In this document: positions 18,573 through 36,485 of the stretch, one piece after another
Layout of the letters: each line of letters opens with the position of its first letter
Position numbering within the stretch: position 1 is the first letter of the stretch
Source: Armatimonadota bacterium
Lineage (GTDB): Bacteria > Armatimonadota > UBA10988
DNA: 64,000 bases
Assembly: GCA_016235455.1 (NCBI GenBank)
Contig: JACRKZ010000102.1
Coordinates: 7,744-71,743 of the forward strand
Direction: 5' to 3'
Program-made: the position numbers and the translations under genes
The notes under the pieces: model-generated
Seen by the model: only the letters and a program-made list of their open reading frames with translations
Told to the model about the DNA's origin: nothing
The model's database searches: none

Positions 18573-21500
18573 TCACTTGCCCAGCGGCGTTCCCTCGCTG
18601 ATCACCGTGACCTGGGCGCGCGCTCTCACGCCCGCCGGTGCCTCGGCGGCGAACGTCAGGGCGTTGGTGCCCGGCGCGAGGCTCGGCACCACGCCGCGCG
18701 GCGTCACATGCGCGATGACCGCGCCGCGCTCATCGCGCATGGTAGCCTCGCCGGTCCCCTCGTACTCCAGGTACTGGCCGCTCTCCAAGGTGACCGGGAA
18801 GCTCAGCGCCTGGCCCGCCACCGTTACCGTCGGGTTGGTCAGTTTGACCTTGAGCACGGGCAGCGCCCTGACCGCGCTGAGGTAGCAGGTGATCGGCTCA
18901 CCAGGCGGCAGGTTGTTGGCCCACAGGTTGAACGCCCCCACCCGACCCCGCACCAACGGGCTGCGACCGACCTCGCAGGCCCCGCCATACGGCCAGAAGT
19001 AGTCCTGATGGCGCTGGGCATCACGCTCGCGCAGCAGCAGTTCCACGTAGCGCCAGCCGACGAAGTCGATGTCCACGTAGTGGTCGTCCCAGGCCGTGTA
19101 GTCCTCGCGGGTGTTGTTGAGCTGGAGGTTCAGCAACTCGCCCTTCCCATCGCCATGGATCCACACGCCCAGCGCGCCACACGCGCTCATGTTCAGCGGC
19201 GGCGTGAAGGCCTGGGCCAGTTTGGTCCACGCGCCGCGGCGCTCGGCCGTGGTGTTCGTGGCGGTCAGCCGGCCGCTCACGCTGCCCGCGCGCGCGGGCT
19301 CGGTGGCCGTGGTCAGGCTCTGCGTCGCGCCCGCCGCCTGCGGGGTGAACCGCTCGGGGCGGGTGAAGTCGGTGACCAGCACCCCGTCAGGCGAATCGTA
19401 GGGCTGCACGGCATACAACGCCTCGATCCGCAGCCGCAGCGGCTGGGCGGCGTGGCGATTGATCACCTGCCAGCGGCCGGAGCCGTCGTCGAGCGCGGTC
19501 ACGCGATGGTGCGCGTAGTCCGTGGGTCGCAGCTGCCAGGCGCCGCCCGCGGCCGGCGCGAGCCGGAACTGCTCGCCCGGCGCGCGCAGTCTGGCCAGCA
19601 CCTGCGGCGCGAACGCGCGGTCCAGCCGCAGCCGCTCATAGCGCCCGAGCAGGGCCAGGTACTCGTCCTGGCGCGCATTGGGCGGAGTGGGCCCGGCCTC
19701 GATGCCCTGCAGGCTTGACGAGTGGTCCCAGCCCAGGCACTTGCCGGCGAAGTACTCCATGTCCTCGGGGAACATGCCCGCGTGGTCGGCCGACGGGCCG
19801 TTGAGCACCCACCAGCCCATGTGGCCGGGCAGCATCTCGCCCGTCGCGTAGGTGGCCAGCTCGGCGCAGTGCAGGTCGGTGAAGCGGTTGTAGCCCCACA
19901 GCGGATGGTCCCAGGCGCCCACCCGCGAATGGAACGGCCAGGCGCCCCACGAGCCCGAGCTGGACTCGACCAGCACGCGTCCCTTCAGCCGGCGGAAGAT
20001 GGCCTGCTTCATGACGGCCACCGCGTGCGCGGTCTTCATGCCCTCGGAGCCGTCCATGTAGATCATGTCGAACCCGCAGGTGTTGTAGACCTCGGCGATG
20101 CGCGCGGCCAGTTCATCGACCAGCGTGCTGCCCTCGTCGGGGATGTAGCAGCAGTAGCTGGCCAGCAGATGGTCCGTCGCGTCGCCCTGAGCATGCGCCG
20201 CCGGCCGGGTCCCCCACCGCCCGCGCGTGCAGCCGTTGAAGCCGTAGGGCGGCTGGCTGGCGATGCCGCTGTAGGCGATGATCTCGTCGCCGATCTGGAT
20301 GGTGTTGCCCGTGCTCATATCGCTCCAGAAGGTCTCCAGCCCTTCGGGCCGCTCGACGGTCGGGATCACCTTGTCGTTCGGGCCGATATCGCCGGCCAGC
20401 GTGAAATGGGCGTCCTTGGCCAGCCGCTTGTCGGGCACCGGCGCCACCCAGGGGTCGTCGACCTGGATGCACCCGGTGAGCGTATGCATGCCGGCCTTGA
20501 GCCCGGCCGCATGGACCTTGGCCACCACCTGCGCGAGCCCGGCCAGGCCGTGGGGGAACAGCGCCGGATTGGGCTCGTAGTGCCCCATGGTGCGCCACCA
20601 CGGGTGGAAGTGGATCTCGGCGAAGCCGCCGCGGCGGGCCAGGGCGATCCACTCGTCGACATTGGCCTCGGAGATCGTGGCGAACACGTATGAGCCGCGA
20701 TTCTCGGGCGCGTCGAGCGCGAACGGCCCGCCCAGCGGCGAGTACGGCAGCCCTTCGGCGCGTACGACGTCCTGCAGCACGCTCCTGATGGCCGCCTGCG
20801 GGCACGCGACCAGCGCCACCTTGGCGCCGACGAGGCCGTAGCGGCGCTCGCAGCGCGGCGTGAGCACGGCCGGCTCGCCGCCCTGCACCGCGGCCTCGAC
20901 CTGCAGGTTGAGCGGCACAGTGGCCGCGGCAAAGTCGGCGTTCACCGCCCAGGCTACGGAGGCGCTGGAGCGCTTGGCGCCGGCGAAGGCCACGCGCCCG
21001 AAGACCACCTGCTCGACCTGCGGGTCGCTGACCGACAGTAGCTCGCAGACCAGGTAGCGACCGCGGTCGGTGACCTTGACCCGCGCGCTGACGCCCGACC
21101 GACCAAAGGTGAAGCTGAGCACGCCGTCACGGTACCCGCAGGCGCTCGGCCGGAAGGTCGTCCCGCCACGCCGGATGCTGACGAAGTCGACGGCCGGCTG
21201 GCCACCATGGTCGCGGCCGGTGGCGCGGTCCACCAGCCCCACCACACGACCGCGCTGGTCGAGCAGCAGGCGCGCTGAGCGAGTCTCCAGGGTCACCGCG
21301 GGCTTGGCCGGAACCGTCGGCATCGGTGCGTAGGCGACGCTGGTCCGCTGTGGCGCGCCGGCCCGATAGTCCGCGAGCACCTGCTCGGGCGTCAGCGCGC
21401 GGTTGTAGAGCTTCACCTCGTCGATCAGGCCGGTATGGCCGGGCTGCTCACCGGCCCAGCGCCCGACCTGCAAGTCGCCCGTGGCTCCCACCGGATAGTC

Positions 21501-22046
21501 CCATTGGGCGGTGCCGACCTGCTTGCCATCGAGGTAGGTGGTCACCGTGGGCCGCGCGAAGGTGGCGGCCAGATGGTACCAGCGACCCGGCTCGAAATGC
21601 CCGAGGCCGACGCCGACCTCGGTCCAGTCGGTCATGGCCATCGGCGCGCGGCCAGGCTTGCCCATGCGGAACGAGCAGTCCTGGTCGGAGACGAACAGCA
21701 TGAAGCCGCCGGGGCACCAGTTGCCCGTGGTGAGGATGTTGGGGTAACGCCCGCCACGTTCCCAACAGACCCACGCCTCGACGGTCAGCGCGGCGGCACC
21801 ATCGAGCCCGGCCGGACAGGGGATGGACACCCAAGCGCCGTTGCCACCGAAGCGCAGTGCCGTGCCAAACGCGCCGCGCACCCACGCCGCGCCGTGGACC
21901 TCACCGTCATTGCCCTGACCCGAGCCGTCAACCACGACGTCACCGGCGCCATCGTCGAAGCGCCAGTCGCCCAGCAGCCCTGGGGTCTGGGCGCGGAGCA
22001 GCCCGCACGCCAGCAGCAGCAACAGAACGGCGCTCCGGTTGGCCAT
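18573..22046 (-). CDS. Large secreted LamG (concanavalin-like) domain protein with glycoside-hydrolase-like central region
   Basis: ORF 18573..22127 trimmed to MANRSAVLLLLLACGLLRAQT (cat verified at 22044-22046). The N-terminal LamG_3-type domain ends in the characteristic IDEVKLYNRALTPEQV. About 1150 aa. Confidence 0.6.
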   Translation of the reverse strand: MANRSAVLLLLLACGLLRAQTPGLLGDWRFDDGAGDVVVDGSGQGNDGEVHGAAWVRGAFGTALRFGGNGAWVSIPCPAGLDGAAALTVEAWVCWERGGRYPNILTTGNWCPGGFMLFVSDQDCSFRMGKPGRAPMAMTDWTEVGVGLGHFEPGRWYHLAATFARPTVTTYLDGKQVGTAQWDYPVGATGDLQVGRWAGEQPGHTGLIDEVKLYNRALTPEQVLADYRAGAPQRTSVAYAPMPTVPAKPAVTLETRSARLLLDQRGRVVGLVDRATGRDHGGQPAVDFVSIRRGGTTFRPSACGYRDGVLSFTFGRSGVSARVKVTDRGRYLVCELLSVSDPQVEQVVFGRVAFAGAKRSSASVAWAVNADFAAATVPLNLQVEAAVQGGEPAVLTPRCERRYGLVGAKVALVACPQAAIRSVLQDVVRAEGLPYSPLGGPFALDAPENRGSYVFATISEANVDEWIALARRGGFAEIHFHPWWRTMGHYEPNPALFPHGLAGLAQVVAKVHAAGLKAGMHTLTGCIQVDDPWVAPVPDKRLAKDAHFTLAGDIGPNDKVIPTVERPEGLETFWSDMSTGNTIQIGDEIIAYSGIASQPPYGFNGCTRGRWGTRPAAHAQGDATDHLLASYCCYIPDEGSTLVDELAARIAEVYNTCGFDMIYMDGSEGMKTAHAVAVMKQAIFRRLKGRVLVESSSGSWGAWPFHSRVGAWDHPLWGYNRFTDLHCAELATYATGEMLPGHMGWWVLNGPSADHAGMFPEDMEYFAGKCLGWDHSSSLQGIEAGPTPPNARQDEYLALLGRYERLRLDRAFAPQVLARLRAPGEQFRLAPAAGGAWQLRPTDYAHHRVTALDDGSGRWQVINRHAAQPLRLRIEALYAVQPYDSPDGVLVTDFTRPERFTPQAAGATQSLTTATEPARAGSVSGRLTATNTTAERRGAWTKLAQAFTPPLNMSACGALGVWIHGDGKGELLNLQLNNTREDYTAWDDHYVDIDFVGWRYVELLLRERDAQRHQDYFWPYGGACEVGRSPLVRGRVGAFNLWANNLPPGEPITCYLSAVRALPVLKVKLTNPTVTVAGQALSFPVTLESGQYLEYEGTGEATMRDERGAVIAHVTPRGVVPSLAPGTNALTFAAEAPAGVRARAQVTVISEGTPLGK

Positions 22047-22132
22047 GGTCGGCCCTCCTGTGTCGGGTGGAGGCCTTCGGCGGTGGGCTGGCAGGACCTT
22101 CTGACGGCCGTGCCCGCGACGTGGCATAATGG

Positions 22133-24190
22133 GTGGCGGCTTGGAGGCGACGAGCAGTGCTTCAGTACCTGCGACTAGAGAACGTCGGGCCGGCGCCCGA
22201 GATGGCGTTCGACTTCGCGCCGCGGCTCAATCTGTTGACCGGCGACAACGGGCTGGGCAAGAGCTTCGTGCTGGATGTCGCTTGGTGGGCGCTGACGGGG
22301 ACGTGGGCCAATGGCATCGCGATCCCTCCGGCGGAGGCTGCAGCCCCAGCGATCGCCTTTCGGCACACGTCTGCCGACGCGGGCGCAACGCGGCCCACGC
22401 TCGCTGTCAAGCGCGCTGACTCGGTTGGGCTGGACTGGCCGCAGCTAGCCAGAGCACGACTGCTCGCACACGGCCATGACCAGAACGAGTGGGGGTCCCT
22501 TCTCCCGGCACTGCTAGAGCAACAGGCAGGCGACACCGACCTGTTGGCGACCGGCCGCGCGTGGCTCATGGGCCGCGAAGACCAGGCGGGCTGGAGCCAG
22601 GTCTGGCAGACGCTGCTAGCCATGCAGCCGGGCGACGCCGACCTGTTGGCGACCGGCCGCACGTGGCTCACCGGCCGCGAGAACCGGGCGGAGTGGGCGC
22701 ACGTCTACCAGACGCTGCTGGCGGCGCAGCCGGGCGACGCCGAGCTGTTTGCGACCGGCCGCGCGTGGCTCGCGGGCCGCGACGACCGGGCGGAGTGGAG
22801 CTACGTCTGGCAGACGCTGCTGGCGGCGCAGGCGGGCGACGCCGAACTGTTGGCGACCGGCCGCGCGTGGCTCGCGGGCCGCGAGGACCGGGCGGAGTGG
22901 AGCCACGTCTGGCGGAGGCTGTTGGCGGCGCAGCCGGGCGACACCGACCTGTTGGCGACCGGCCGCGCGTGGCTCATGGGGCGCGAGGAGCAGGCGGGCT
23001 GGAGCCAGGTCTGGCAGACGCTGCTAGCGACGCAGCCGGGCGACACCGGCCTGCCAATGGGCGAGCTGGCGAAACTACTCGGCCAACTAACCCACGTGGG
23101 CGGACGCGCAGAGACCGTGCACGGCGGCCGAGCGGATCTTGCAGGCGGGTCTGCGTCCAGAGGGCCCCGTGCATCAGCTGGCCCGCAAGACCGCCTTGGC
23201 CTGTACGATCGCGCCACGCAGCAATGGAGGATCGGCAAGGCGTTACCCGGCCACGCTGGCCTTGTCGTCTACATGCGGGTGGACGGTGGGTTCGCAGTTT
23301 GGGATCCGCAGCGCAACGCGGTCAGCGCCGACGGGCCGGGGCGGCCACCAGCGTTTGTGTTCACAGCCGATGAGCTGTGGTCGGGCAACTCAGCCTGCGA
23401 AGGCCTGGTACGCGACTGGACGTCTTGGCAGCGCGAAGGAAACAACGCGTTTCAGCTCCTCTCGAGAGTGCTCGAAGAGCTGGCGCCCGCCGCAGAGGAG
23501 CCGCTGGTGCCCGGTGAGCCGCGACGCATAGCCGTGGGCGACCCCAGAGACTACCCGACTCTGCGGATGCCGTACGGCGAAGACGTTCCGGTGGTGCATG
23601 TCTCCGCAGGCATGAAGCGCATTATCAGTCTGGCCTATCTGCTAGTCTGGACTTGGCGTGAACACCAGGAGATATGCCAGTTGCTCGGGCAGCGGCCAAC
23701 TGACGAACTGGTCCTTCTCGTCGATGAGGTCGAGACGCACCTGCATCCACGTTGGCAACGCTGTATCGTACCCGCCCTTCTGACGGTAATGGACACCATC
23801 ACCGCCGGTTGTCGACTTCAGGCCATCGTGGCCACCCACTCGCCGCTGGTCCTCGCCTCGATGGAAGACACCTTCGACACGAGCACCGACCAGGTCTTCG
23901 ACCTGGAGCTGACCGACGGCCAGGTCGAGGTGCGCCGGCTGCCCTACGAGCCGCTGGGCACCGCCGACGACTGGCTGACCTCCGACGCCATCGGCTTGCG
24001 CTCGGCGCGCGGCTCCTTGGTGCAGGAGGCGCTGCTCGAGGAACTGGCGGCAGCCTGGAACGATCCCGCGCTCACCGAACCGCGTTACCGCGAGCTGTCG
24101 GAGAAGCTGGCGTCGTCGTCCATGCGTGACACCGACCCTGTGCGCAGCCGCTGGCTGGCGCTGGGCGAGCGCCGAGGGTTCGTGTCGTGA
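22133..24190 (+). CDS. AAA_15/AAA_21-type (SMC-head-like) ATPase, PtuA-like, with internal 34-aa TPR-like tandem repeats
   Basis: N-terminus LQYLRLENVGP...LLTGDNGLGKSF (beta-strand plus Walker A). C-terminus LLVDEVETHLHPRWQ (Walker B with THLHP) and IVATHSPLV (H-loop). Five full 34-aa repeats lie between. GTG start. GTGA overlap with the next gene. Confidence 0.6.
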   Translation: MAAWRRRAVLQYLRLENVGPAPEMAFDFAPRLNLLTGDNGLGKSFVLDVAWWALTGTWANGIAIPPAEAAAPAIAFRHTSADAGATRPTLAVKRADSVGLDWPQLARARLLAHGHDQNEWGSLLPALLEQQAGDTDLLATGRAWLMGREDQAGWSQVWQTLLAMQPGDADLLATGRTWLTGRENRAEWAHVYQTLLAAQPGDAELFATGRAWLAGRDDRAEWSYVWQTLLAAQAGDAELLATGRAWLAGREDRAEWSHVWRRLLAAQPGDTDLLATGRAWLMGREEQAGWSQVWQTLLATQPGDTGLPMGELAKLLGQLTHVGGRAETVHGGRADLAGGSASRGPRASAGPQDRLGLYDRATQQWRIGKALPGHAGLVVYMRVDGGFAVWDPQRNAVSADGPGRPPAFVFTADELWSGNSACEGLVRDWTSWQREGNNAFQLLSRVLEELAPAAEEPLVPGEPRRIAVGDPRDYPTLRMPYGEDVPVVHVSAGMKRIISLAYLLVWTWREHQEICQLLGQRPTDELVLLVDEVETHLHPRWQRCIVPALLTVMDTITAGCRLQAIVATHSPLVLASMEDTFDTSTDQVFDLELTDGQVEVRRLPYEPLGTADDWLTSDAIGLRSARGSLVQEALLEELAAAWNDPALTEPRYRELSEKLASSSMRDTDPVRSRWLALGERRGFVS
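22529..23038 (+). repeat. Five tandem near-identical 102-bp coding repeats (34-aa units, consensus D-x-D/E-L-L-A-T-G-R-A-W-L-x-G-R-E-x-x-A-x-W-S-x-V-W-Q-T-L-L-A-x-Q-P-G) inside the ATPase gene
   Basis: Direct reading: gacctgttggcgaccggccgcgcgtggctc... recurs with period 102 nt. Units 1 and 5 are nearly identical at the DNA level. A partial unit precedes from about 22454. Confidence 0.85.
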
Positions 24191-24753
24191 TCCGTGTCAA
24201 ACCAGCACCAGAACCGCCGTCGTTCGACGAGCGAGTTCGCCAACCCGGCTTGGCGCAGTTGCCTGAGCTGAAGCCGCACTGGCGCCGCTGTCTACCCGAC
24301 CTGCTCGCCGCGTACCAGCACATCTGCGCCTACTCGTGCTTCTACATCCATCCGGTCGCCGGCGCGCGTACCGTCGAGCACTTCGGGCCGAAGTCGGCGT
24401 CGCCCGAGCTGGCCTACGAATGGTCGAACTACCGCCTGGTGTGCAGCCTGATGAACAGCCGCAAACAGGCCTTCGACGATGTCCTCGACCCGTTTGAGAT
24501 CGAGAACGGGTGGTTCGTGCTCGACTTCGTGAATTTTGAGGTCCATCCGGACGTTGAGCTGGCCATTGACCACGCCGCCATCCAGGCCACAATCGACCGG
24601 CTCGGACTCAACGACGCGCCCTGCCCGAGCACGCGCCAGCAGGAGTACGAGATGTATGAGCGCGGCGACGCCTCCTGGCGGCATCTCTGTCGCGTCAGCC
24701 CCTTCGTCGCCGCCGAAGTGGAGCGCCAAGGCCTGCGCCGGGCCGGCGACTGA
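24187..24753 (+). CDS. HNH-like nuclease, TIGR02646/PtuB-like
   Basis: HICAYSCFYIHPV...TVEHFGPKS...NYRLVCSLMNSRK matches the Cys-x-Tyr-x-Cys ... (I/V)EHF-PKS ... N-x-x-K pattern of the TIGR02646 HNH-like family that partners AAA ATPases in Septu systems. GTG start overlaps the ATPase stop. Confidence 0.5.
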   Translation: MIRVKPAPEPPSFDERVRQPGLAQLPELKPHWRRCLPDLLAAYQHICAYSCFYIHPVAGARTVEHFGPKSASPELAYEWSNYRLVCSLMNSRKQAFDDVLDPFEIENGWFVLDFVNFEVHPDVELAIDHAAIQATIDRLGLNDAPCPSTRQQEYEMYERGDASWRHLCRVSPFVAAEVERQGLRRAGD

Positions 24754-26007: not shown

Positions 26008-27606
26008 ATGGAGATCGAGATGATATCGTGTCGGACTGGGCTCGCGACGGTGGTTCTGGTCGCGACACTCTCGCCGCTGTCAGCGCAGAACAGCAGCAGT
26101 ACCGGCGGCATCTGCGGCGTCCCGCCGCGCGAAGCCCTGTTGATACTCCGAGAGGCTGGGATGCCGTGGGCACCGTGCAAGGGTTGGGCCGACGTCATGG
26201 CCGCCGGCGGCGGCGAGCCCGGGCTTGACCTGTCGAGCTGGGGCAGCGGACGCACCTGGCGCACGCTCAAGGGCTGGAATCAGGATCTGACGGTCACTCA
26301 GCTCGGTAGCTGGGCGCAGACCTTGCGTGCGCCGGAGCGCGTGGCCAGCATCGAGCGACTCGGAGCCACGGGGCTCCCACAGGCCGTGGACGCACTGGCA
26401 GTGCTGCTTGACTCCAGCGATGTGGGCATCGCCCCGGCCGCAGGCAAGGCCTTGCGCCGACTTGCGGAACGGGGCTTGGTGAAGCCTGACCGGGTGGCGG
26501 ACTGGCTACAGGTCGGCGCCAAGCAAGCCGCAGCGATCAGCGTGGCGGCAGGGGTGAAGGACGAGACTGGCGTTATGGTAGATCGTGTCGCCAGCCTCGT
26601 CCCAGACCTGTTGCTGCGGGCAGACACCACGACCCTGGGTTGTGCGGCGCTGGCGCTGTACCGCAACGGCCGAAGCGAGCAGGTCGATGCTCTGCTCGGG
26701 TCGGGCGCGAAGGGCAGAGACAGGGACCTCGCCTATCAGGCACTCGCCGACATCGCCGGTGACGTGCGCCCCAACGACCTTCACTGGCTGCCCGGCACAT
26801 GGCAGAGCAAGACACGCGCCGATGAGCCTGACGCGTTGGCAGCGGCGGGGCTCCTGCTCCAGGCCAGCCTGGCCGCCCGCGCCGACCCGGCCACCGAGCT
26901 CGCAAGCGCCGCCCTGCTGGACGACCTACTGGCCGCGGACCGACCTGTTTGGCTGCGCGTGCACGTGGCTGACCTGATAGCGCGGCAGGGCCTCCTTGCC
27001 GACTGCCGGCCGCGCCCCGGCGGCGCCACGCTAGGCGAGCACGCCAGCCAGACCCCGGCTGAGATAGTGGCCAGCGGCACGCTGCCAACCGAGTCGATTT
27101 GGTGGCTTGTGTACCACTTCAGTGTGCCCTGCGCGCTCCGCGCGGGGTGGCCACTACCGAACCACACAGGGATCCTCTCATGCAAACCGACGGCAGAGAA
27201 CACCACCTGCGCCGCGCAATGCCGGGCCATCGGCAAGCTGGCCAAGGAGCGAGGTGAGCACATCGTCGCCCGGTACGTCGAGTTGAACGCAGGCACCCAG
27301 CATGCCGCCTGCGGTGTGTTGCTCCGCGACTCATCGTGCGACAAAGCCTGGGATCAGGAGTTCGTGCTCGTTCGCCTGGCCCACACCGCTTGTGCCGAGG
27401 CAAGGACGTTCGCGCGCTGCGTCGAGCTCAACTACGTCAAGCCCGACACGGTCGGCGCCATTGACGTACTTGCATTGTCGTACAGCTGGCACAACGGCAG
27501 GTACGAACTGGTGACGACGGCAAGCGGCGCTGTTGCGCGGAACGCTTTCGCGCGTATGGTCACAAACAATCTCGGCCACCTGAACTGGAAGGAGACGGAC
27601 ACATGA
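26008..27606 (+). CDS. Secreted hypothetical protein with HEAT/PBS-lyase-like repeat and Cys-rich C-terminal region
   Basis: Signal peptide MISCRTGLATVVLVATLSPLSAQ. PQAVDALAVLLDSSDVGIAPAAGKALRRL is a HEAT-like repeat. The C-terminal 150 aa hold about 10 Cys. The gene and upstream spacer are lower in GC than their surroundings. Confidence 0.4.
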   Translation: MEIEMISCRTGLATVVLVATLSPLSAQNSSSTGGICGVPPREALLILREAGMPWAPCKGWADVMAAGGGEPGLDLSSWGSGRTWRTLKGWNQDLTVTQLGSWAQTLRAPERVASIERLGATGLPQAVDALAVLLDSSDVGIAPAAGKALRRLAERGLVKPDRVADWLQVGAKQAAAISVAAGVKDETGVMVDRVASLVPDLLLRADTTTLGCAALALYRNGRSEQVDALLGSGAKGRDRDLAYQALADIAGDVRPNDLHWLPGTWQSKTRADEPDALAAAGLLLQASLAARADPATELASAALLDDLLAADRPVWLRVHVADLIARQGLLADCRPRPGGATLGEHASQTPAEIVASGTLPTESIWWLVYHFSVPCALRAGWPLPNHTGILSCKPTAENTTCAAQCRAIGKLAKERGEHIVARYVELNAGTQHAACGVLLRDSSCDKAWDQEFVLVRLAHTACAEARTFARCVELNYVKPDTVGAIDVLALSYSWHNGRYELVTTASGAVARNAFARMVTNNLGHLNWKETDT

Positions 27607-28064
27607 GTGGTACTGCACCGACAGTGATCAGCCGCCGTGCGGGCCGCAAGCGCCTCACCAGCGCTCTCGGCCTGGGCTGCGTCGTTGCGGCGGTCTGCGG
27701 CCTGGCGGCGAGTCTCTATAACCGCGACCACGACATTGTGCGGCTCGCGCAGGCCATCCTGCCAGCCTTCCTGCCCGCGCTCTCGGCCTTGGTGCCACTG
27801 GTGCTGACCCCGCAGAAGGACGACGATGAGCCGCTACCTGATGGGGCCTTGTCGCTGGCCCTGGGTATCTGCGTCATCTACTCGACCGCCTGGTGTGTGC
27901 TGGCCGCGTGCTCCTACACGCTCGATGATCTCGGAGTCGGGCAGCGGCCCCACTTCGACAGCGCCGTGGCGCTGCTCTCAACCATCGGCCAGTCGGTGGT
28001 GGTCGGCATGGTGGTCACGAGTTTGGGCGGCGCGGCGAAGGCCGTCACTCCGCCGGGCAAGTAG
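27603..28064 (+). CDS. Small integral membrane protein (3-4 predicted TM helices)
   Basis: ATGA overlap with the preceding gene. Hydrophobic segments LGLGCVVAAVCGLAASLY, ILPAFLPALSALVPLVL, LALGICVIYSTAWCVLAA and LLSTIGQSVVVGMVVTSL. Confidence 0.4.
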   Translation: MSGTAPTVISRRAGRKRLTSALGLGCVVAAVCGLAASLYNRDHDIVRLAQAILPAFLPALSALVPLVLTPQKDDDEPLPDGALSLALGICVIYSTAWCVLAACSYTLDDLGVGQRPHFDSAVALLSTIGQSVVVGMVVTSLGGAAKAVTPPGK

Positions 28065-28127: not shown

Positions 28128-30755
28128 TTGCTGATGACCGCCATCACCTTCCTCCAAACCGCCCTGCTCGGCCTGGCCCTGACGCAGCCCGGCGCAGCGA
28201 CAGAAACCCGCCTCTCCGAGCTCGACCTGTCGGGCCTGACCCAGGGCTACGGCTCGCCGCAGGTGGACGTCTCGGCCATGGGCCATGCGCCGGCCAAGTG
28301 GACGCTGCGGCTCGATGGCAAGGCGACCGAGTTCAGAGCGGCGGTCGGCGTGCAGGAGTACGCCGACAACGTCGGCGTCGGCAGCGTCGAGTTTGTCGTG
28401 CTCGGCGACGGACGCGAGCTGTTCCGCTCGGGAGTCATGCGCGGCGGGCAGCCGGCCAAGGACGTCAAGGTCGACCTGACCGGCCTCAAGGAGCTGGTGC
28501 TGCAGGTCACCGACGGCGGCGACGGCAACAGCTCGGACCATGCCGACTGGCTGGAGCCGGTCATCGTCCACAACGGCGCGCCGCTGCCCCTGCCGCCGAC
28601 CGACCCGGTGGTGCCCGACCCGCCCGGCGCGCCGCCCAGCCAGGCCGCCAAGGTCGAGTTCGACGCCGGCCGTGGCACGCTGCGGCTGACCTACAACGGG
28701 GGCGTCCTGCTGGATGCGAAGGTCACCGGCCGGGCCAGACTGGAGCAGCAGGTCAGCGAGGCCAAGGGCGCGGTCACTCAGGTGCTGACACTGACCGGCA
28801 CCGGGCTGAAGCTGGCCGGCAGCGTGCAGGCGGGCGAGCAGTCGCTGGCCGCGGAGACGCGCGGCGAGGCGCAGAAGCGCTTCCCGCTGGTGCGCACCAG
28901 CCATGGCGCCAGCCGGAACCTGCGCAACAACGCCGTCTACGACCGCGCGGGCGACTGGTGCCTGCTGGGCCCGGCCGATGGCTCAACCCGCATCACGCCC
29001 ACCGCGAACCATGCCTACCGGCTGGCGTGCACGGGCGACACCATCCGCCTGACTTTCCAGCCGCGGCTGTATAGCCGGCACCGCAACCTGCCCTACTACC
29101 GGCCCTGGACCTACCGCGTGCGGCAGGATAGCATCACCGGTTGGTGCTCGTGGTGGGCTTACATGCGCGGCTTCCGGCAGACCGACCTGGACGGGCTGCT
29201 GGCGGTCTGGAAGGACAAGCGTCTGGCCGACTACGGCTACCGCTTCATCCAGATCGACGACTGCTTCCAGGGCGGCGAGGATGGCGGCCGGCCCGGCACG
29301 CCCAAGACCAACGGCTACCCCGGTGGTCGGCCCGAGACCTGGCTGAAATGGCGGACGGACGCGTTCCCCGGCGGCCTGACCGGCTATGCCGAGGCCTGCC
29401 GGCAGGCCGGCTTCGAGCCGGGCGTGTGGATCGGCAGCGGCATGGGCGACTTGGGGACCGTCGAGGCTCATCCCGACTGGTTCGTCCACGGGCCGGATGG
29501 CAAGCCATTTGCCGGCGACTGGGTGGGCTTCGCCGTGGACAGCACCATCCCCGCGGCGGCCGACGCCCTGGTGCGACCCATCTACCGCGGGATCCGGCAG
29601 GCCGGCTACTCGTATGTCAAGATCGACACGCTGCGCCATCGGCTGTACGACAACCTGCACCACAACCCCGGCTATTGCGCCGAACGCGGCAAGTCGGCCG
29701 CTGAGATCTTCCGCTCTTACGTGCAGGCCGCGCGCGAGGAACTGGGGCCGGACACGTTCCTGCTGGCCTGCTGGGGCGTGTTGCCCGAGGTCATCGGCCT
29801 GGCCGACGCCTGCCGCATCGGCGGCGACGGCTACGGCCCCGTGACCATGCAGTCGTACAACTCGTTCAACGGCATCGTCTGGCGCAACGACCCCGATCAC
29901 TGCGACGTCTACCCGCGCTTCAAGCCGGCCGAGAGCGGCAACGTGACGCACACCAACGTGGTGACCGCGACCAACAGCGAGACCCTCCTGCGGCCGGCGC
30001 TGGCCTCCATCGCCGGGTGCATGCTGATGCTCAGCGACAAGCCCGAGGTGTATCGCGACGACGCCAACCTGATCGGTGCGCGGCGGGCCTCACCGGTGCT
30101 GTTCTCGGTGCCCGGTCAGCTCTATGACTTCGAGCCGGCCAAGTCCGACAACCTGCGGCGCGGCGCCCGGCTGTCGATCACCTCCGGCGGCCCGCCGGCG
30201 CCGGTCGACGCCGACCAGTTCGGCCCGGTCTGCCCCTGGTGGCTCAACGAAATCGACCGGCCGTTTGAGCATTGGAGCGTGCTGCACCACCTCAACTGGA
30301 CCGACCGCCCCATGACGGCGACCACCGTCGCGCTGGCCGACCTGGGCCTCGACGCCGACCGCGACTACCTGGTCTACGAGTTCTGGTCGCAGCGCTTCGT
30401 GGGCAGCGTGCGCGGCAGCCTGGCCGTGCCGGAGCTGGCCGCTCAAGGCCTGGCCAGCTACGCGCTGCGCGAACGGCTCGACCGGCCGCAGTTGCTCAGC
30501 ACGAGTCGCCACCTGACCCAGGGCGGCGTCGACCTGCTGGCGGTGAACTGGCGCGGCAAGACCCTCTCTGGTAGCAGCAAGGTCGTGGCTGGTGACCGCT
30601 ACGAACTGGTGCTCCACGCGCCGGCCGGCTTCACGCTCGCCGCGGCAACGATCGCCGACAAGGCCGCCGAGGCCAAGACCGACGGCGAGGTGCTGCGCGT
30701 GGCCTTCACACCGACCGCCACCGGCACGGTAGCGTGGTCCGTGAGCTTCCACTGA
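28128..30755 (+). CDS. Alpha-galactosidase-like glycoside hydrolase (GH27/GH36 clan) with N-terminal NPCBM domain
   Basis: The N-terminal domain (GSVEFVVLGDGRELFRS ... LVLQVTDGGDGNSSDHADWLEPVI) matches the NPCBM/NEW2 carbohydrate-binding module. The central region has YRFIQIDDCFQ (melibiase-type IDDxW/F motif). 875 aa with a signal peptide. Confidence 0.65.
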   Translation: MLMTAITFLQTALLGLALTQPGAATETRLSELDLSGLTQGYGSPQVDVSAMGHAPAKWTLRLDGKATEFRAAVGVQEYADNVGVGSVEFVVLGDGRELFRSGVMRGGQPAKDVKVDLTGLKELVLQVTDGGDGNSSDHADWLEPVIVHNGAPLPLPPTDPVVPDPPGAPPSQAAKVEFDAGRGTLRLTYNGGVLLDAKVTGRARLEQQVSEAKGAVTQVLTLTGTGLKLAGSVQAGEQSLAAETRGEAQKRFPLVRTSHGASRNLRNNAVYDRAGDWCLLGPADGSTRITPTANHAYRLACTGDTIRLTFQPRLYSRHRNLPYYRPWTYRVRQDSITGWCSWWAYMRGFRQTDLDGLLAVWKDKRLADYGYRFIQIDDCFQGGEDGGRPGTPKTNGYPGGRPETWLKWRTDAFPGGLTGYAEACRQAGFEPGVWIGSGMGDLGTVEAHPDWFVHGPDGKPFAGDWVGFAVDSTIPAAADALVRPIYRGIRQAGYSYVKIDTLRHRLYDNLHHNPGYCAERGKSAAEIFRSYVQAAREELGPDTFLLACWGVLPEVIGLADACRIGGDGYGPVTMQSYNSFNGIVWRNDPDHCDVYPRFKPAESGNVTHTNVVTATNSETLLRPALASIAGCMLMLSDKPEVYRDDANLIGARRASPVLFSVPGQLYDFEPAKSDNLRRGARLSITSGGPPAPVDADQFGPVCPWWLNEIDRPFEHWSVLHHLNWTDRPMTATTVALADLGLDADRDYLVYEFWSQRFVGSVRGSLAVPELAAQGLASYALRERLDRPQLLSTSRHLTQGGVDLLAVNWRGKTLSGSSKVVAGDRYELVLHAPAGFTLAAATIADKAAEAKTDGEVLRVAFTPTATGTVAWSVSFH

Positions 30756-33278: not shown

Positions 33279-36200
33279 TCAGTGGCCAGCCGCCTTCCGC
33301 CAGTCCGGAATGCTCACCGGCTTGGTCACCACCGGCCAGCTGGCGCGGAAGTCGTCGTCATAGAGCCCGATCTCGTCGATGGGAATGGGCTTGAAGCCGA
33401 CCTTGGCCAGCAGCTCGCTCTTGGCCTTGAGGTCGTAGTCGCCGGCCTCAGGGTTCACGAACCCTGGATTCGCCTCGGGCCATTCGCCGTTCTCGATGAG
33501 ATCGTAGCCGGCGCGGTTGCCGCGGACCATGTCGCCGCTGCGGTAGAAGACATTGCGCCACAGGTAGTTGATGCCTGGCGGCTTGAGCATGGTCTTCATC
33601 TCTGGGTAGCGCTCCTGGTAGAGCGGGTTGTTGATGTAGGCGGCCGGCGGCGTGGCCTGCGCCATCTGCACCCAGCAGGAGTTGCCGGCGTGCCAGCCGC
33701 CACTGACGCCCTGCTTGCAGTCGACAAACAGGTTGTTGTCCATGATGTTGTCACGGCCGCTGTTGATCTGCACGGCGCCGAAGTTGCCGTTGGCGCTGCG
33801 GATGAACACGTTGCCGTAGACCACCATGCCGCTGATGGCGTCGTCGAAGCGGATCGCCGCCTGGCCGTGCACCGCCGCGCCGGGCTTGTCCTTGCCGCAG
33901 TTCTCAAAACGGTTGTACCGGAAGATCACCCCGCGGTAGGTCGGGTTGCCGAACAGCTCCATCGCGCCCTGGTCGTCGCTCTCGCGTACCGCCGAGTGGA
34001 CGTCGTTGTACTCGATTAGGTGGTCGTTGCCCTCGATGCGCATGACGCTGCTCGGGCAGTCGTACATGAGGTTGTGCGCCACGCGGTTGCCCACGCCCTC
34101 AAGCTGGATGGCCGGCGTGTAGGTACGGTCGATGCGGCCGAAGTTGTGTATCTGGCAGTTCTCGACGAAATGCTGGCCCGGCGTCAGCGTCGCGCGGTCG
34201 CCGCCGATGACTTCCGTGGCGCGGCGGCCGATGGTGTGGATGTCACACCCATAGATGCCGTCGGCCGTGCCGCCGTTGATGGTGATGCCGTTGCCGGCCA
34301 GTCGGCTGACGGTGCAGCCGGCCACCAGCGCGCGGTTGCAGTTGGTCAGCACGAGCCCGTTGGACCGGCCCAGGTCGAAGGTCAGGCCCTCGAACCGCAG
34401 GTCGTTGACGCTGTCGGCGGTGACCATCGGCGTGGCCAGCAGGCCCACCTCCACCGTGGCACCGGCCAGGTCGGTCGGCGGGTAGAGGTAGAGCACACCC
34501 GACTTGCGGTCCAGGTAGTACTCGCCCGGTTGGTCGATCTCTTCGAGCAGGTTGAAGGCGTAGTACTGGATGCCCTGCCCTGGGTCCATGCCCGGCCCGC
34601 CATACTGGTAGGCCTCGTTGCAGGTCATGGTCTTGGTCGCGGGATCGATCTTGGAGACCTTGATGGTCGCGTCGGCCCACAGGTAGCGGAAGTAGCCGAA
34701 CAGCCAGGCGTCGTCGGCCTGCGTCCAGCGCGCATGACGGTCGTCCAGGTACTCGAAGACCGACGGCTTCTTCTGTCCGCGGTCGCCGCGTTCGGTCAGC
34801 TTGCCGATGCCCACGAAACCCTCATTGGGCCAGCGTGCCGGCGTCAGCGCCCGGCCATTGACGAACACCTCCAGCGTCGGCGGCGAGTCGGGCTGGCCGA
34901 AGCCGCGGACGGCGAGTTGGCCATACTCGGTGATGCCTTGTTCCTTCAGATCGCAGCGCATGACCTTGCCGCGGCTGGCCTCGGGCAGGCGCGCGGTGAT
35001 GGCCGCGTCGGTCACGGGGCCGAAGCCGGTCAGGCGCTGGCCGCCATACAGCCGCGTCTTGCCGGGCTGCGAGGCGCGGTAGACCGTGGGGCCGCTGTCG
35101 GTGCCCGAATCCGGCGCGGTCAGCGCCAGCGGGCCGGTGACCCGGTATTCGCCCGGCAGCAGCGTCACGGTCACGGCGCCCTTGACGCCCCGAGCGCGCT
35201 GTGCCCGCACCAGGTCGCGCGCGCGGGTCAGGCTGGCCACGGGCTTGGCCACGCCGTTGGCGGCATCGTCGCCCGTGGGCGAGACGATGATCTCGGCCTC
35301 GAACTTGGTCACTGCGTCGGGCGTGTGGCGGGACGACAGCGGGTTGTGGCCCGGCAGGCCCTTGCCCTCGCGCTCGATCTCGCGCGCGCACGCCAGCGCC
35401 TCGTCGCGATGGACCTGCGGGTACTCGACGTTGTTCGCGATGTCGTTGTAGACGTTCTGAGCCTCTTTGGCCTTGCCCTGGGCCACCCAGGTCTGCGCCG
35501 AGCGCAGGTGGGCGTAGCTGCGCAGCGGCGCCGGCAGCTCCTTGGTGGCGATGAGCGCCACGCAAGCGCGGCGCACGGCGGTGTAGTCGCCGCGAGCCCA
35601 GTCATCGTGCGATTTGGCGAAGTCCTGCATGAGCGCCTCCCGCCGTTCGGCGGCGGCCGCCTCGGGCGAGATGATCACGCCGAAGGTCTTTTGCAGCCGG
35701 TCGAACTCGGCCTTGGCATCGGCCCGGGTCAGCGCTCGGCGGTAGACCTTAGCCTCGTCCATCAGGCCCATGTAGTTGTGCCAGCCGTTGCCCAGGGTCA
35801 GCTCGCCGCCCACCGAGAAGTCACCGCTCCAGCCCGCGGGCAGCGTCGAGCCGCCCTGGTTGAAGCCGTTGAGGAACACGTCGACGCGACCCTTGGCACG
35901 ATCCACGCTGAGCACCAGGTGCGCCCACTCGCCGACCTTGAGGCCCATGGCACCGCCGCCGCCGGTCGAGGCCACCTTGCCATCGGCGCCCTTGTAGCAG
36001 AAGTAGTAGTTGGGCGTGCCGTTGGCCATCAAGTCGAGCACGAGGTACGCATCGGGATACGTACCGCAGCCGAAGATGCGCCGCTGGTTCTGGGCGTCGG
36101 CGATGTCGAACCTGGTGGGCTTGAGCCACAAGCTCACGCTCCACGAGCCCTTGCCGAAGCGCTGGTTGTCAGGCAGCTTGACGCTGACCACGCTGGCGCC

Positions 36201-36410
36201 GGTGCCGTCGCACGACAGCGCCTGGCCCGAGGGCGACGCGACCAGCGTGCCACTCGTGGTGCCGTCGAGCTTGTTGGGCGAGCGGTCGGCGATGACCCGG
36301 CCCGCGGGCTCATCGAACGTGTAGTGCAGCAGCAGGCCATCCTGGGCCCAGAGCACCGCCTGGCTGACCATCAGCGCCAGACAACCCAACAGCATACGAC
36401 GTGCGGACAT
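33279..36410 (-). CDS. Secreted LamG-domain plus right-handed parallel beta-helix protein (polysaccharide hydrolase/lyase-like)
   Basis: Signal MSARRMLLGCLALMVSQAVLWAQ. LamG_3 domain ends in LMDEAKVYRRALTRADAKAEF. The central beta-helix repeats (NGITINGGTADGIYGCDIH, RFENCGKD) follow. Shares YY..N..E....PGE.YLDR..G.L.Y.P with the beta-helix protein at 43484..46225. Confidence 0.6.
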   Translation of the reverse strand: MSARRMLLGCLALMVSQAVLWAQDGLLLHYTFDEPAGRVIADRSPNKLDGTTSGTLVASPSGQALSCDGTGASVVSVKLPDNQRFGKGSWSVSLWLKPTRFDIADAQNQRRIFGCGTYPDAYLVLDLMANGTPNYYFCYKGADGKVASTGGGGAMGLKVGEWAHLVLSVDRAKGRVDVFLNGFNQGGSTLPAGWSGDFSVGGELTLGNGWHNYMGLMDEAKVYRRALTRADAKAEFDRLQKTFGVIISPEAAAAERREALMQDFAKSHDDWARGDYTAVRRACVALIATKELPAPLRSYAHLRSAQTWVAQGKAKEAQNVYNDIANNVEYPQVHRDEALACAREIEREGKGLPGHNPLSSRHTPDAVTKFEAEIIVSPTGDDAANGVAKPVASLTRARDLVRAQRARGVKGAVTVTLLPGEYRVTGPLALTAPDSGTDSGPTVYRASQPGKTRLYGGQRLTGFGPVTDAAITARLPEASRGKVMRCDLKEQGITEYGQLAVRGFGQPDSPPTLEVFVNGRALTPARWPNEGFVGIGKLTERGDRGQKKPSVFEYLDDRHARWTQADDAWLFGYFRYLWADATIKVSKIDPATKTMTCNEAYQYGGPGMDPGQGIQYYAFNLLEEIDQPGEYYLDRKSGVLYLYPPTDLAGATVEVGLLATPMVTADSVNDLRFEGLTFDLGRSNGLVLTNCNRALVAGCTVSRLAGNGITINGGTADGIYGCDIHTIGRRATEVIGGDRATLTPGQHFVENCQIHNFGRIDRTYTPAIQLEGVGNRVAHNLMYDCPSSVMRIEGNDHLIEYNDVHSAVRESDDQGAMELFGNPTYRGVIFRYNRFENCGKDKPGAAVHGQAAIRFDDAISGMVVYGNVFIRSANGNFGAVQINSGRDNIMDNNLFVDCKQGVSGGWHAGNSCWVQMAQATPPAAYINNPLYQERYPEMKTMLKPPGINYLWRNVFYRSGDMVRGNRAGYDLIENGEWPEANPGFVNPEAGDYDLKAKSELLAKVGFKPIPIDEIGLYDDDFRASWPVVTKPVSIPDWRKAAGH

Positions 36411-36485
36411 GCGCGGCTCCCGTGATGGCGGGGACTTCGACACGGGGCGCGCGGTTCCTTCCGCCGGTGCGCAGGTGCTTCTGGG

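What the first reader, a model, noticed from the sequence alone, without database searches (positions are those of the whole stretch)
22454..23050. Five near-identical 102-bp tandem repeats encoding 34-aa TPR-like units inserted between Walker A and Walker B of the PtuA-like ATPase
Read directly from the DNA, the motif gacctgttggcgaccggccgcgcgtggctc...cagacgctgctggcggcgcagccgggcgac recurs with a 102-nt period five times, plus a partial unit. Units 1 and 5 are almost identical at the nucleotide level.

Each unit encodes 34 aa (DTDLLATGRAWLMGREDQAGWSQVWQTLLAMQPG). Small and hydrophobic positions fit the TPR consensus (G8, aromatic 11, A20, hydrophobic 24, A27, P32, shifted by one).

In PtuA-like ATPases this inter-motif region is normally a coiled-coil arm; a TPR-like solenoid in its place would be an unusual sensor or partner-binding module. 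The DNA-level identity implies recent expansion, and copy number could vary between strains by slippage or recombination.
Basis: seen in the sequence. Interest (0 to 1): 0.65.

Follow-up and report, generated by a model that had tools for sequence, protein, structure and literature searches.

The report
STAND-type sensor repeats inside a Septu ATPase
A bacterial anti-phage ATPase (Septu PtuA) carries, spliced in frame into a surface loop, a six-unit helical repeat module otherwise found only at the sensor end of NLR-like STAND immune proteins; no second example turned up, so it looks like a one-off graft of one immune system's sensor onto another system's engine.

Summary
TRF finds 5.1 in-frame copies of a 102-bp unit at 22529-23053 (87% match, no indels). 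They lie between Walker A and Walker B of a PtuA ATPase (22157-24190) that is followed by a PtuB HNH nuclease, so this is a Septu pair.

- **Not a replacement for a coiled-coil arm.** About 266 aa (aa 85-351) are added at the tip of a beta-hairpin some 30 residues after the Walker A helix. All 119 closest homologues (396-456 aa) and all 80 genome loci examined lack the insertion.
- **Not a detectable TPR by sequence.** The units belong to an unannotated 34/40-aa repeat family (342 cluster representatives). That family forms the C-terminal arrays of nSTAND5-like STAND NTPases carrying TIR or Fic effectors.

AlphaFold2 gives six helix hairpins plus a cap helix (pLDDT 91), tethered by two disordered linkers. 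The nearest solved folds are TPRs, but only weakly (best E 4e-3).

Positions that vary between units coincide with the family's variable positions, and the framework residues are invariant.

Best reading: a STAND-type sensor solenoid grafted into PtuA, probably for ligand binding. That function is inferred. It is a single example from a MAG, so a neutral accident remains a serious rival.

The parts
22157..24190 (+). ptuA: Septu ABC-type ATPase, 677 aa from the annotated GTG start. The ORF is open from 22133.
   Evidence: PADLOC PtuA PDLC00307, E 4.7e-143. Pfam AAA_21 and AAA_15. 100% identical to an NCBI Armatimonadota MAG protein, P0001. GGAGG lies upstream of the GTG at 22157. The AF2 core has pLDDT above 90, and Foldseek's top hits are PtuA structures.
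22241..22264 (+). Walker A motif, GDNGLGKS (aa 37-44 of the 685-aa ORF).
   Evidence: Invariant in 120 homologues.
22349..22366 (+). Beta-strand (aa 73-78), the N-terminal arm of the hairpin that receives the insertion.
   Evidence: AF2 secondary structure. Aligns to IxFxYTK of the homologues.
22385..22426 (+). N-terminal linker of the insertion (aa 85-98), predicted disordered.
   Evidence: Absent from all homologues. pLDDT below 50 for aa 83-100. The codon-position GC profile is atypical for this frame (pre-repeat insert, 22385-22528: GC1 0.81, GC3 0.69).
22427..22528 (+). U0, a degenerate N-terminal capping repeat unit: GLDWPQLARARLLAHGHDQNEWGSLLPALLEQQA.
   Evidence: Shares 7-10/34 aa and 42-50/102 nt with U1-U5. 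Forms a helix hairpin in both AF2 models. Included in phmmer alignments to STAND arrays.
22529..23038 (+). U1-U5: five 102-bp (34-aa) near-identical repeat units, each a helix-loop-helix.
   Evidence: TRF. Pairwise identities. AF2 of the isolated domain, pLDDT 91.3. Each unit scores 49-54 bits against the family unit HMM. GC3 is 0.97.
23039..23092 (+). Partial unit and C-terminal cap helix (aa 303-320, GDTGLPMGELAKLLGQLT).
   Evidence: Helix at aa 309-319, which is H215-229 of the domain model. Weak alignment to the array ends of STAND proteins P0143 and P0162.
23093..23185 (+). C-terminal linker (aa 321-351), rich in Gly, Arg and Ala, predicted disordered.
   Evidence: pLDDT below 50 for aa 319-348. 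Absent from homologues. GC3 0.65 for the post-repeat insert, 23039-23185.
23192..23209 (+). Beta-strand (aa 354-359), the C-terminal arm of the interrupted hairpin.
   Evidence: AF2. Aligns to xSxFDR of the homologues.
23603..23845 (+). ABC signature region (SAGMKR, 23603-23620), Walker B (LLVDEVE, 23714-23734) and H-loop (ATHSP, 23831-23845).
   Evidence: All 58 columns invariant across the 120-sequence alignment, this protein included, fall in the core on either side of the insertion.
24187..24753 (+). ptuB: HNH nuclease partner, 188 aa. Its start overlaps the ptuA stop by 4 nt (GTGA).
   Evidence: PADLOC PtuB PDLC00348, E 3.1e-64, full length. NCBIfam TIGR02646 and PtuB hits are sub-threshold. 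The overlap is shown.

Best explanation
The locus is a two-gene Septu defence system (PtuA ABC-type ATPase plus PtuB HNH nuclease). Its ATPase has acquired, in frame, a module of about 266 aa. The module consists of a disordered linker, a degenerate capping unit, five near-identical 34-aa helix-loop-helix units, a cap helix and a second disordered linker.

The module sits at the turn of a beta-hairpin in the N-terminal lobe of the ATPase head. It leaves every conserved ATPase element intact.

It is homologous to the C-terminal repeat arrays of nSTAND5-like STAND (NLR-like) NTPases. In characterised STAND immune proteins, the C-terminal repeat array is the ligand-sensing part.

Most likely mechanism (inferred): the tethered alpha-solenoid acts as a protein- or ligand-binding sensor or adaptor. 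Its occupancy would change PtuA head engagement, oligomerisation, or access to the head surface, and so release or activate the PtuB nuclease.

The near-identity of the units reflects amplification or concerted evolution of the array. Copy-number change in 102-nt steps preserves the reading frame and could retune the binding surface.

- **Shown:** the anatomy, the homology, the predicted fold, and the absence of a second example in what was searched.
- **Inferred:** ligand binding and coupling to nuclease activation.
For: - **Septu identity.** PtuA 4.7e-143 and PtuB 3.1e-64 in PADLOC. The model's best structural matches are PtuA and retron PtuA cryo-EM structures.
- **Insertion delimited.** Eight-sequence and 120-sequence alignments place it at aa 85-351. 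The closest homologue (64% identity, 408 aa) lacks it, and all 58 invariant columns lie in the core on either side of it.
- **Fold.** The full-length model gives hairpins at pLDDT 70-88 with linkers below 50. The isolated domain modelled with 24 STAND segments gives pLDDT 91.3, pTM 0.83 and 13 helices.
- **Homology to STAND arrays.** phmmer of the insert against 1.84 billion cluster representatives gives 342 hits at E<=1e-3 and 81 at E<=1e-30, with a best hit of 4e-209. Most are 1000-2000-aa proteins with the repeats at the C-terminal end.
- **Host proteins are STAND-like.** 13 of 14 scanned have their NTPase region hit PF25199 nSTAND_NTPase5, plus TIR_2 or Fic effectors. At least 76 of 150 share the same N-terminal module.
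- **Unit consensus.** The consensus of 610 family units is AELLALGRAWLAGREDRPEWSYVWQRLLA. Window unit U4 reads AELLATGRAWLAGREDRAEWSHVWRRLLA.
- **Pattern of variation.** Positions that differ between the five units are the family's variable positions (entropy 2.45 against 1.47 bits, p=0.011). Framework residues L5, G9, W12, L13, G15, R16, W22, V25 and L29 are invariant.
- **Rarity.** No other high-scoring PtuA-plus-repeat protein appears in the 5.8-billion-protein search. None of 150 repeat-bearing representatives has a PtuA core. None of 80 genome loci has the insertion.
- **Precedents.** STAND sensors are mostly TPR-like arrays that bind phage proteins (bioRxiv 10.64898/2026.01.04.697583). 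Retron Ec78 PtuA uses a lineage-specific helix-loop-helix insertion in its nucleotide-binding domain, together with loops of the helix-grip fold, to hold its regulator msDNA (PMC12819146).
- **Repeat-number variation.** It is seen in this repeat family and in NLR repeats generally (PMC4986451).
Against: - It is a single example from one metagenome-assembled genome. With no orthologue carrying the module, there is no evidence of selection acting on the chimera itself.
- The two linkers look like non-native sequence. They are rich in Gly, Arg and Ala, predicted disordered, and have GC3 of 0.65-0.69, below GC1. That suits a recent illegitimate recombination.
- dN/dS between units is about 1-2.8 for most pairs, on only 34 codons. 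This fits relaxed constraint as well as diversification.
- The match between variable positions and family-variable positions could have been inherited from a donor array.
- The position of the solenoid relative to the PtuA oligomer and the PtuB site could not be evaluated, because no model coordinates or PAE were available.
- No ligand is known.
Confidence: 0.6

Rival explanations
1. Evolutionary accident. A fragment of a STAND NTPase repeat array, with flanking junk sequence, was recombined into ptuA recently. It is neutral or mildly deleterious, or it inactivates the ATPase, and it has no sensor role. The gene only looks intact because too little time has passed.
For: - It is a single example: no second case.
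- The linkers are disordered and have an atypical codon-position GC profile.
- dN/dS between units is about 1 or higher.
- The Septu pair is isolated among carbohydrate-metabolism genes, not in a defence island.
Against: - The insertion sits exactly at a hairpin turn with no loss of flanking strand residues. It is in frame at both junctions.
- It brings a complete mini-domain: an N-cap unit, five units and a C-cap helix. The predicted fold is confident.
- Framework residues are invariant in all five units, while differences avoid them.
- The ATPase core retains all invariant residues, and AF2 predicts an undisturbed core.
Confidence: 0.3
2. Assembly artefact. The insertion, or at least the number of units, comes from metagenome mis-assembly, either a chimeric join with a STAND gene or collapse or expansion of near-identical repeats.
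For: - The source is a MAG contig.
- The units are 81-95% identical over 102 nt, which can confuse short-read assemblers.
- The exact protein is not in the gene-position index. The unit 27-mer has no exact match in the genome or metagenome collections, so there is no independent confirmation.
Against: - A chimera would need two independent false joins. Both would have to be in frame and return to the same gene.
- The junction and linker sequences resemble neither ptuA nor the repeats. They share only chance matches of 11-14 nt with the array, well below assembler k-mer sizes.
- No other copy of the repeat exists in the 64-kb window.
- The units differ at 5-19 positions each, enough to order them.
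Confidence: 0.07
3. One reading: a canonical TPR domain replacing the coiled-coil arm that normally separates Walker A from Walker B in PtuA-like ATPases.
For: - The period is 34 residues and the units are helix-turn-helix.
- The top Foldseek neighbours are TPR proteins, including consensus TPR, KLC2, OGT, PEX5 and LGN.
- G8, an aromatic at position 11 and a proline near position 32 are present.
Against: - No Pfam TPR model hits the insert at E<=10 or the STAND relatives at E<=1e-3.
- The Foldseek matches have a best E of 3.8e-3 and TM of 0.23-0.51.
- The helices are 11 residues long with an 8-residue conserved loop (GREDRxEW).
- The family also has a 39-40-aa period mode.
- The homologues have nothing at this site, so nothing was replaced.
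Confidence: 0.05

Closest known systems
Septu PtuA/PtuB (stand-alone Septu; PDB 8EE4, 8EEA) and retron type I-A (Ec78/Eco7) PtuAB
   Same: - An ABC/SMC-like ATPase with Walker A, a signature motif, Walker B and an H-loop.
- A downstream, translationally overlapping HNH nuclease.
- Strong matches to PADLOC PtuA and PtuB models, and PtuA cryo-EM structures as the best structural matches.
- Retron PtuA also carries a lineage-specific helical insertion in the nucleotide-binding domain that binds its regulator (PMC12819146).
   Different: - About 266 extra residues form a tethered repeat solenoid at a hairpin turn. The 119 closest homologues, 80 genome loci and the solved PtuA structures all lack it.
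- Nothing points to a retron partner. Neighbouring ORFs were only partly scanned, and ncRNA was not searched for.
- The score is far below the NCBIfam retron-PtuA equivalog cut-off (53 against 500 bits).
- The 627-aa PADLOC PtuA model PDLC00270 owes its length to an N-terminal extension, not to an insertion at this site.
C-terminal repeat arrays of nSTAND5-like STAND NTPases (bacterial NLR-like conflict proteins with TIR or Fic effectors; for example P0121, P0124, P0126)
   Same: - The same repeat family: the framework is LxxxGRxWLxGRxDxxxWxxVWxxLL with a 34-aa period.
- Up to 76% unit identity (U4 against P0126 units).
- High internal repeat conservation, and length polymorphism in whole units.
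   Different: - Here the array is short (6 units, against a median of 7 and a maximum of 20).
- It is internal, not C-terminal.
- It is attached to an ABC ATPase, not a STAND NTPase.
- No STAND domain is detectable in this protein.
Avs and other STAND pattern-recognition receptors with TPR-like sensors
   Same: A helical-repeat solenoid coupled to an NTPase that controls a nuclease effector. In these proteins, ligand binding by the solenoid drives activation.
   Different: Here the NTPase class is ABC, the solenoid is inserted in the head through flexible linkers, and no ligand or activation data exist.
Highly internally conserved TPR, ANK and WD repeats of fungal NLRs (Dyrka et al. 2014, PMC4986451)
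   Same: Near-identical tandem units, with variation confined to a subset of positions, and repeat-number polymorphism as a route to diversification.
   Different: - Mean amino-acid identity between the units here is 75%, below the 85% criterion of that paper. Only U1 and U5 reach 94%.
- Positive selection could not be tested from one allele.

Membership tests
Septu PtuA (PADLOC definition) | Match to a PtuA profile over the ATPase core. | tested here: met
   PDLC00307 scores E 4.7e-143 (475 bits). ORF residues 10-82 match profile positions 2-76, and residues 357-682 match positions 84-421.
Septu PtuA (PADLOC definition) | ABC-type catalytic motifs are intact (Walker A, signature, Walker B, H-loop). 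| tested here: met
   GDNGLGKS, SAGMKR, LLVDEVE and ATHSP are all present. All 58 columns invariant across the 120-sequence alignment lie in the core outside the insertion.
Septu PtuA (PADLOC definition) | An adjacent PtuB HNH nuclease gene. | tested here: met
   24187-24753 matches PDLC00348 at E 3.1e-64, with a 4-nt overlap with ptuA.
Septu PtuA (PADLOC definition) | Confers anti-phage defence. | not testable with these tools
   This needs an experiment.
Retron Ec78-type PtuA (NCBIfam NF041760 equivalog) | Score above the curated cut-off of 500 bits. | tested here: not met
   The score is 53.1 bits, E 2.5e-14. It is related to this equivalog but not a member.
TPR (tetratricopeptide repeat, Pfam clan) | A 34-residue helix-turn-helix unit repeated in tandem. 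| tested here: met
   The period is 102 nt or 34 aa. There are two 11-residue helices per unit.
TPR (tetratricopeptide repeat, Pfam clan) | Sequence match to TPR profile models. | tested here: not met
   No TPR family is among the Pfam hits at E<=10 for the insert. None appears at E<=1e-3 for 14 STAND relatives.
TPR (tetratricopeptide repeat, Pfam clan) | Structural superposition on solved TPR domains. | tested here: inconclusive
nSTAND5-associated C-terminal repeat family (unannotated) | Significant sequence similarity of the units to the family. | tested here: met
   phmmer gives 342 hits, with a best of 4e-209. Each unit scores 49-54 bits against the family unit HMM.
nSTAND5-associated C-terminal repeat family (unannotated) | The array is attached to a STAND NTPase domain in the same polypeptide. 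| tested here: not met
   The host here is an ABC ATPase. Pfam and NCBIfam find no STAND domain. The module belongs to the repeat family, but the protein is not a STAND protein.
Highly internally conserved NLR-type repeats (Dyrka et al. 2014 criterion) | More than 85% identity between units over at least 100 aa. | tested here: not met
   Mean pairwise amino-acid identity is 75%. Only U1 and U5 reach 94%. It is still the highest internal identity of the 83 arrays compared.

The most novel reading that the evidence does not exclude
This is a functional hybrid immune receptor. A Septu ATPase-nuclease has captured a diversifiable NLR/STAND-type sensor array, so an ABC-ATPase defence system senses a phage or host protein directly through a tethered solenoid. 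Unit gain, loss or conversion in 102-nt steps would retune its specificity. If so, sensor modules would be exchangeable between unrelated NTPase classes of prokaryotic immunity.
Probability: 0.35. Interest if true: 0.75.

Novelty: new variant of a known kind. Interest (0 to 1): 0.55.

Why it matters
How stand-alone Septu senses infection is poorly understood. A PtuA carrying a sensor-type array would give a concrete, testable handle: pull down the ligand of the solenoid.

It would also show that the repeat sensors of NLR-like STAND proteins can be transplanted onto a mechanistically different NTPase, here an ABC/SMC-like head. Modular exchange in prokaryotic immunity would then extend beyond effector swapping.

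As a by-product, the work defines a widespread repeat family: 342 representatives at 50% clustering, with 34-aa and 39-40-aa periods and the framework LxxxGRxWLxGRxDxxxWxxVWxxLL. No Pfam, NCBIfam or PADLOC model matched it in the searches run here.

Tried and rejected
- **Insertion hot-spot idea.** PADLOC PtuA model PDLC00270 (627 aa) seemed to have about 215 extra positions at the same site. Scanning the N-terminal 90 aa alone showed that the extra 213 positions are an N-terminal extension, since Walker A maps to profile positions 214-276. Rejected.
- **L027.** This genome locus had a match span of 2361 nt and looked like a second insertion. It is two tandem Septu pairs. Rejected.
- **Word-index search with the insert alone.** It returned nothing, not even the protein itself. 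This looks like a limitation of candidate selection for repeats, because the exhaustive HMMER search found the family.
- **Exact 27-mer scans.** Genome contigs and metagenome contigs gave 0 matches. No sister strain or recent DNA donor was found.
- **Gene-position index.** P0001 is not in it.
- **High GC3 as evidence of foreign origin.** The repeats have GC3 of 0.97 against 0.79-0.80 in the ptuA core. The same excess is seen in STAND protein P0126 (0.85 against 0.74). It is therefore a property of such arrays, perhaps from conversion bias, and not proof of origin.
- **Junction repeats.** There are no target-site duplications or terminal inverted repeats, only chance matches of 11-14 nt.
- **Donor in the window.** No frame of the 64 kb carries another unit.
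- **Mid-sized repeat proteins.** Ten of them (600-730 aa) were tested as possible PtuA chimeras. None has any PADLOC hit.
- **Literature.** No paper linked PtuA with TPR insertions, and 'nSTAND5' does not occur in the searchable library.
Full report
**1. The observation**

Tandem Repeats Finder reports one array at 22529-23053, with period 102, 5.1 copies, 87% matches, no indels and score 761. A 27-mer from the unit recurs five times at 102-nt spacing with at most one mismatch. Dinucleotide-preserving shuffles expect none.

The units are in frame in the ORF 22133-24190, and each encodes 34 residues. U1 and U5 share 97/102 nt and U3 and U4 share 94/102. All other pairs share 83-89/102.

A degenerate unit, U0 (22427-22528), precedes the array. 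A partial unit that forms a cap helix (23039-23092) follows it.

**2. The host gene**

The ORF is a Septu PtuA. PADLOC model PDLC00307 scores E 4.7e-143, and Pfam finds AAA_21 and AAA_15. The next gene (24187-24753) is a PtuB HNH nuclease, with PDLC00348 at E 3.1e-64. It overlaps the ptuA stop codon by 4 nt.

The protein is 100% identical to an NCBI protein from an Armatimonadota MAG. That record starts at the GTG at 22157, which has GGAGG upstream. The score is far below the NCBIfam cut-off for the retron Ec78-type PtuA equivalog, at 53 against 500 bits. It is therefore a Septu-type PtuA, not a retron-type one.

The neighbouring genes encode a sulfatase, Laminin_G_3 and NPCBM proteins, a lyxose isomerase, an enolase-superfamily enzyme and an IclR regulator. 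The Septu pair is thus isolated among carbohydrate genes. Its GC3 (0.79-0.84) is lower than that of its neighbours (0.88-0.93), which suggests horizontal acquisition.

**3. Where the repeats sit**

The closest homologues after the self-hit are all 396-456 aa. Alignments with 7 and with 119 of them show that residues about 85-351 of the 685-aa ORF (nt 22385-23185) have no counterpart. The flanks IAFRHTSADAG and DRLGLYDRATQQW align to the two strands of a conserved hairpin, IxFxYTKxTxG and SYxYxSxFDRxxERW. The module is therefore added exactly at the turn and deletes nothing.

In the AlphaFold2 model (mean pLDDT 83), these are strands 73-78 and 354-359 of the N-terminal lobe, about 20 residues after the Walker A helix (aa 43-55). 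The core has pLDDT above 90. The short helix pair 425-450, the signature helix and Walker B are undisturbed. All 58 columns that are invariant in the 120-sequence alignment lie in the core outside the insertion.

This PtuA clade has no long arm, and nothing was replaced.

**4. What the repeats are**

No Pfam TPR model hits the insert even at E<=10, and no PADLOC model hits it. An exhaustive phmmer search of the insert against 1.84 billion cluster representatives gave 342 hits at E<=1e-3 and 81 at E<=1e-30, with a best hit of 4e-209. Almost all are proteins of 1000-2000 aa with the matching region near the C-terminus.

Of 14 such proteins scanned, 13 have their P-loop region hit Pfam PF25199, 'Novel STAND NTPase 5'. 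The hits are consistent but below threshold, at 20-31 bits against a cut-off of 34. One protein has an N-terminal TIR domain and another a C-terminal Fic domain. At least 76 of the 150 representatives share the N-terminal module of the top hit. None has a PtuA core.

A unit HMM finds a median of 7 and up to 20 units per protein, with period modes at 34 and at 39-40 residues. The consensus of 610 units is AELLALGRAWLAGREDRPEWSYVWQRLLA. Window unit U4 reads AELLATGRAWLAGREDRAEWSHVWRRLLA.

Named sources include Longimicrobium, Photobacterium, Thermoanaerobaculia and Candidatus Kentron. The entries are hypothetical or uncharacterised, apart from one labelled an S1 RNA-binding domain protein and one a pentapeptide-repeat (YjbI) protein.

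The insert is thus a member of an unannotated repeat family whose normal home is the C-terminal, sensor-position array of nSTAND5-like STAND NTPases.

**5. Fold**

The insert (aa 95-325) was modelled with 24 STAND array segments as its alignment. The result has pLDDT 91.3 and pTM 0.83, with 13 helices forming six hairpins and a cap. Each unit has helix A at positions 3-13, a conserved 8-residue loop (xGREDRxE), and helix B at positions 22-32. The two linkers (aa 83-100 and 319-348) are predicted disordered.

Foldseek against the PDB returns mostly TPR and TPR-like repeat proteins at the top, including consensus TPR, KLC2, OGT, PEX5, LGN and LapB. The best E is 3.8e-3, TM is 0.23-0.51 and rmsd is large. 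'TPR-like alpha-solenoid' is a fair structural label. Membership of the TPR family is not established.

**6. Evolution of the array**

- *DNA similarity.* The window's units are far closer to one another (83-97/102) than to the units of the best foreign relative, P0126 (60-70/102). At protein level U4 is as close to P0126 units (26/34) as to its own siblings. This fits amplification or concerted evolution within the array, here or in an unsampled donor.
- *Internal identity.* The array has the highest internal amino-acid identity (0.75) of the 83 arrays compared.
- *Where the units differ.* Differences between units are not concentrated at third codon positions (9, 8 and 12 sites by position). 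dN/dS is about 1-2.8 for most pairs. The differences do fall on the family's variable positions (entropy 2.45 against 1.47 bits, one-sided Mann-Whitney p=0.011). They avoid the framework residues L5, G9, W12, L13, G15, R16, W22, V25 and L29. Variable sites cluster in the A-B loop and at helix-B positions 23, 24, 27 and 28, which read as one face of the helix.
- *GC3.* The GC3 of the repeats (0.97) exceeds that of the ptuA core (0.79-0.80). The same excess occurs in P0126, at 0.85 against 0.74. It is therefore not proof of a foreign origin.
- *Repeat-number change.* A 90%-identity cluster of one STAND protein contains members of 1144, 1066, 1027, 949 and 871 aa, which differ by multiples of 39 residues. 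Unit gain and loss does occur in this family.
- *Junctions.* No target-site duplication or terminal repeats mark the junctions.

**7. Rarity**

- In the 5.8-billion-protein search, the only hit above 553 bits is the protein itself. A second PtuA carrying the array would have ranked there.
- None of the 150 best repeat-bearing representatives is a PtuA.
- A scan of species-representative genomes found 559 relatives. The 80 best loci have match spans of 1065-1362 nt. The one exception proved to be two tandem Septu pairs.
- The 627-aa PADLOC PtuA model owes its length to an N-terminal extension, not to an insertion at this site.

**8. Mechanism**

*Shown:* an intact Septu pair, and a complete, well-formed STAND-type mini-solenoid tethered by flexible linkers to a surface hairpin of the ATPase head.

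*From the literature:*
- PtuA oligomers scaffold PtuB. ATP or ADP binding keeps the nuclease quiescent (PMC13376987).
- In retron I-A systems the regulator msDNA is held by loops of the PtuA helix-grip fold and by a lineage-specific helix-loop-helix insertion in the nucleotide-binding domain (PMC12819146).
- STAND sensors are mostly TPR-like arrays that bind phage proteins and thereby trigger oligomerisation (bioRxiv 10.64898/2026.01.04.697583).

*Inferred:* the solenoid is a ligand- or partner-binding module. Its occupancy alters PtuA head engagement or oligomerisation, or it acts as a removable lid on the head, and this controls PtuB.

I put the descriptive part of this account at about 0.85-0.9 and the functional part at about 0.4.

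**9. Rivals**

- A recent, functionless recombination accident remains serious, at about 0.3. It rests on the lack of a second example, the junk-like linkers and dN/dS near 1.
- A chimeric assembly is unlikely, at about 0.07. It would need two in-frame false joins without shared k-mers. The copy number could still be mis-assembled.
- The canonical 'TPR replacing the arm' reading is rejected on the alignments and the Pfam result.

**10. Verdict**

The correct description is a STAND/NLR-type repeat array inserted into a hairpin of a short-form Septu PtuA. This is a new variant of a known kind of system. It is interesting as a possible cross-class sensor graft, but it rests on one MAG sequence and has no functional evidence.

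Noticed in passing
P0127 cluster; no window coordinates: A 90%-identity cluster of a STAND protein carrying the same repeat family has members of 1144, 1120, 1066, 1027, 949 and 871 aa. Most of the length differences are multiples of 39 aa, one repeat unit. This indicates natural copy-number polymorphism of these arrays.
   Followed up: partly
Proteins P0121-P0270: A widespread repeat family with the framework LxxxGRxWLxGRxDxxxWxxVWxxLL and periods of 34 and 39-40 aa. It forms the C-terminal arrays of nSTAND5-like NTPases with TIR or Fic effectors. No Pfam, NCBIfam or PADLOC model matched it in these searches. It could be defined as a new family.
   Followed up: partly
window 22133-24753 compared with neighbours 9174-36443: The ptuA core and ptuB have GC3 of 0.79-0.84, while the surrounding carbohydrate-metabolism genes have 0.88-0.93. 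This suggests that the Septu pair was acquired horizontally into a non-defence neighbourhood.
   Followed up: partly
window 26008-27606 and 27603-28064 (+): Two overlapping ORFs of 532 and 153 aa have no Pfam, PADLOC or NCBIfam hits. Their GC3 is 0.80-0.84, like ptuAB and lower than the neighbours. They may be further acquired genes of unknown function.
   Followed up: no
L085 1185-5408 (P0126 gene) and window 22529-23038: In both genes the repeat array has markedly higher GC3 than the rest of the gene: 0.85 against 0.74 in P0126, and 0.97 against 0.79 here. This would fit GC-biased conversion among repeat units.
   Followed up: partly
L027 2155-5960 (Marinobacterium weihaiense): Two complete Septu ptuA-ptuB pairs lie head to tail (424 + 213 aa and 425 + 199 aa), followed by a 782-aa ORF that was not characterised.
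   Followed up: partly
window 18573-22127 (-) and 33279-36443 (-): Two very large proteins of 1184 and 1054 aa with Laminin_G_3 domains, one also with a beta-helix. An 875-aa NPCBM protein lies at 28128-30755. Together they look like a polysaccharide-utilisation neighbourhood.
   Followed up: no
(tool behaviour): The word-index protein search with the repeat insert alone returned no hit at all, not even the identical NCBI protein. The exhaustive HMMER search found 342 relatives. Negative results from the word-index tool are unreliable for repeat queries.
   Followed up: yes
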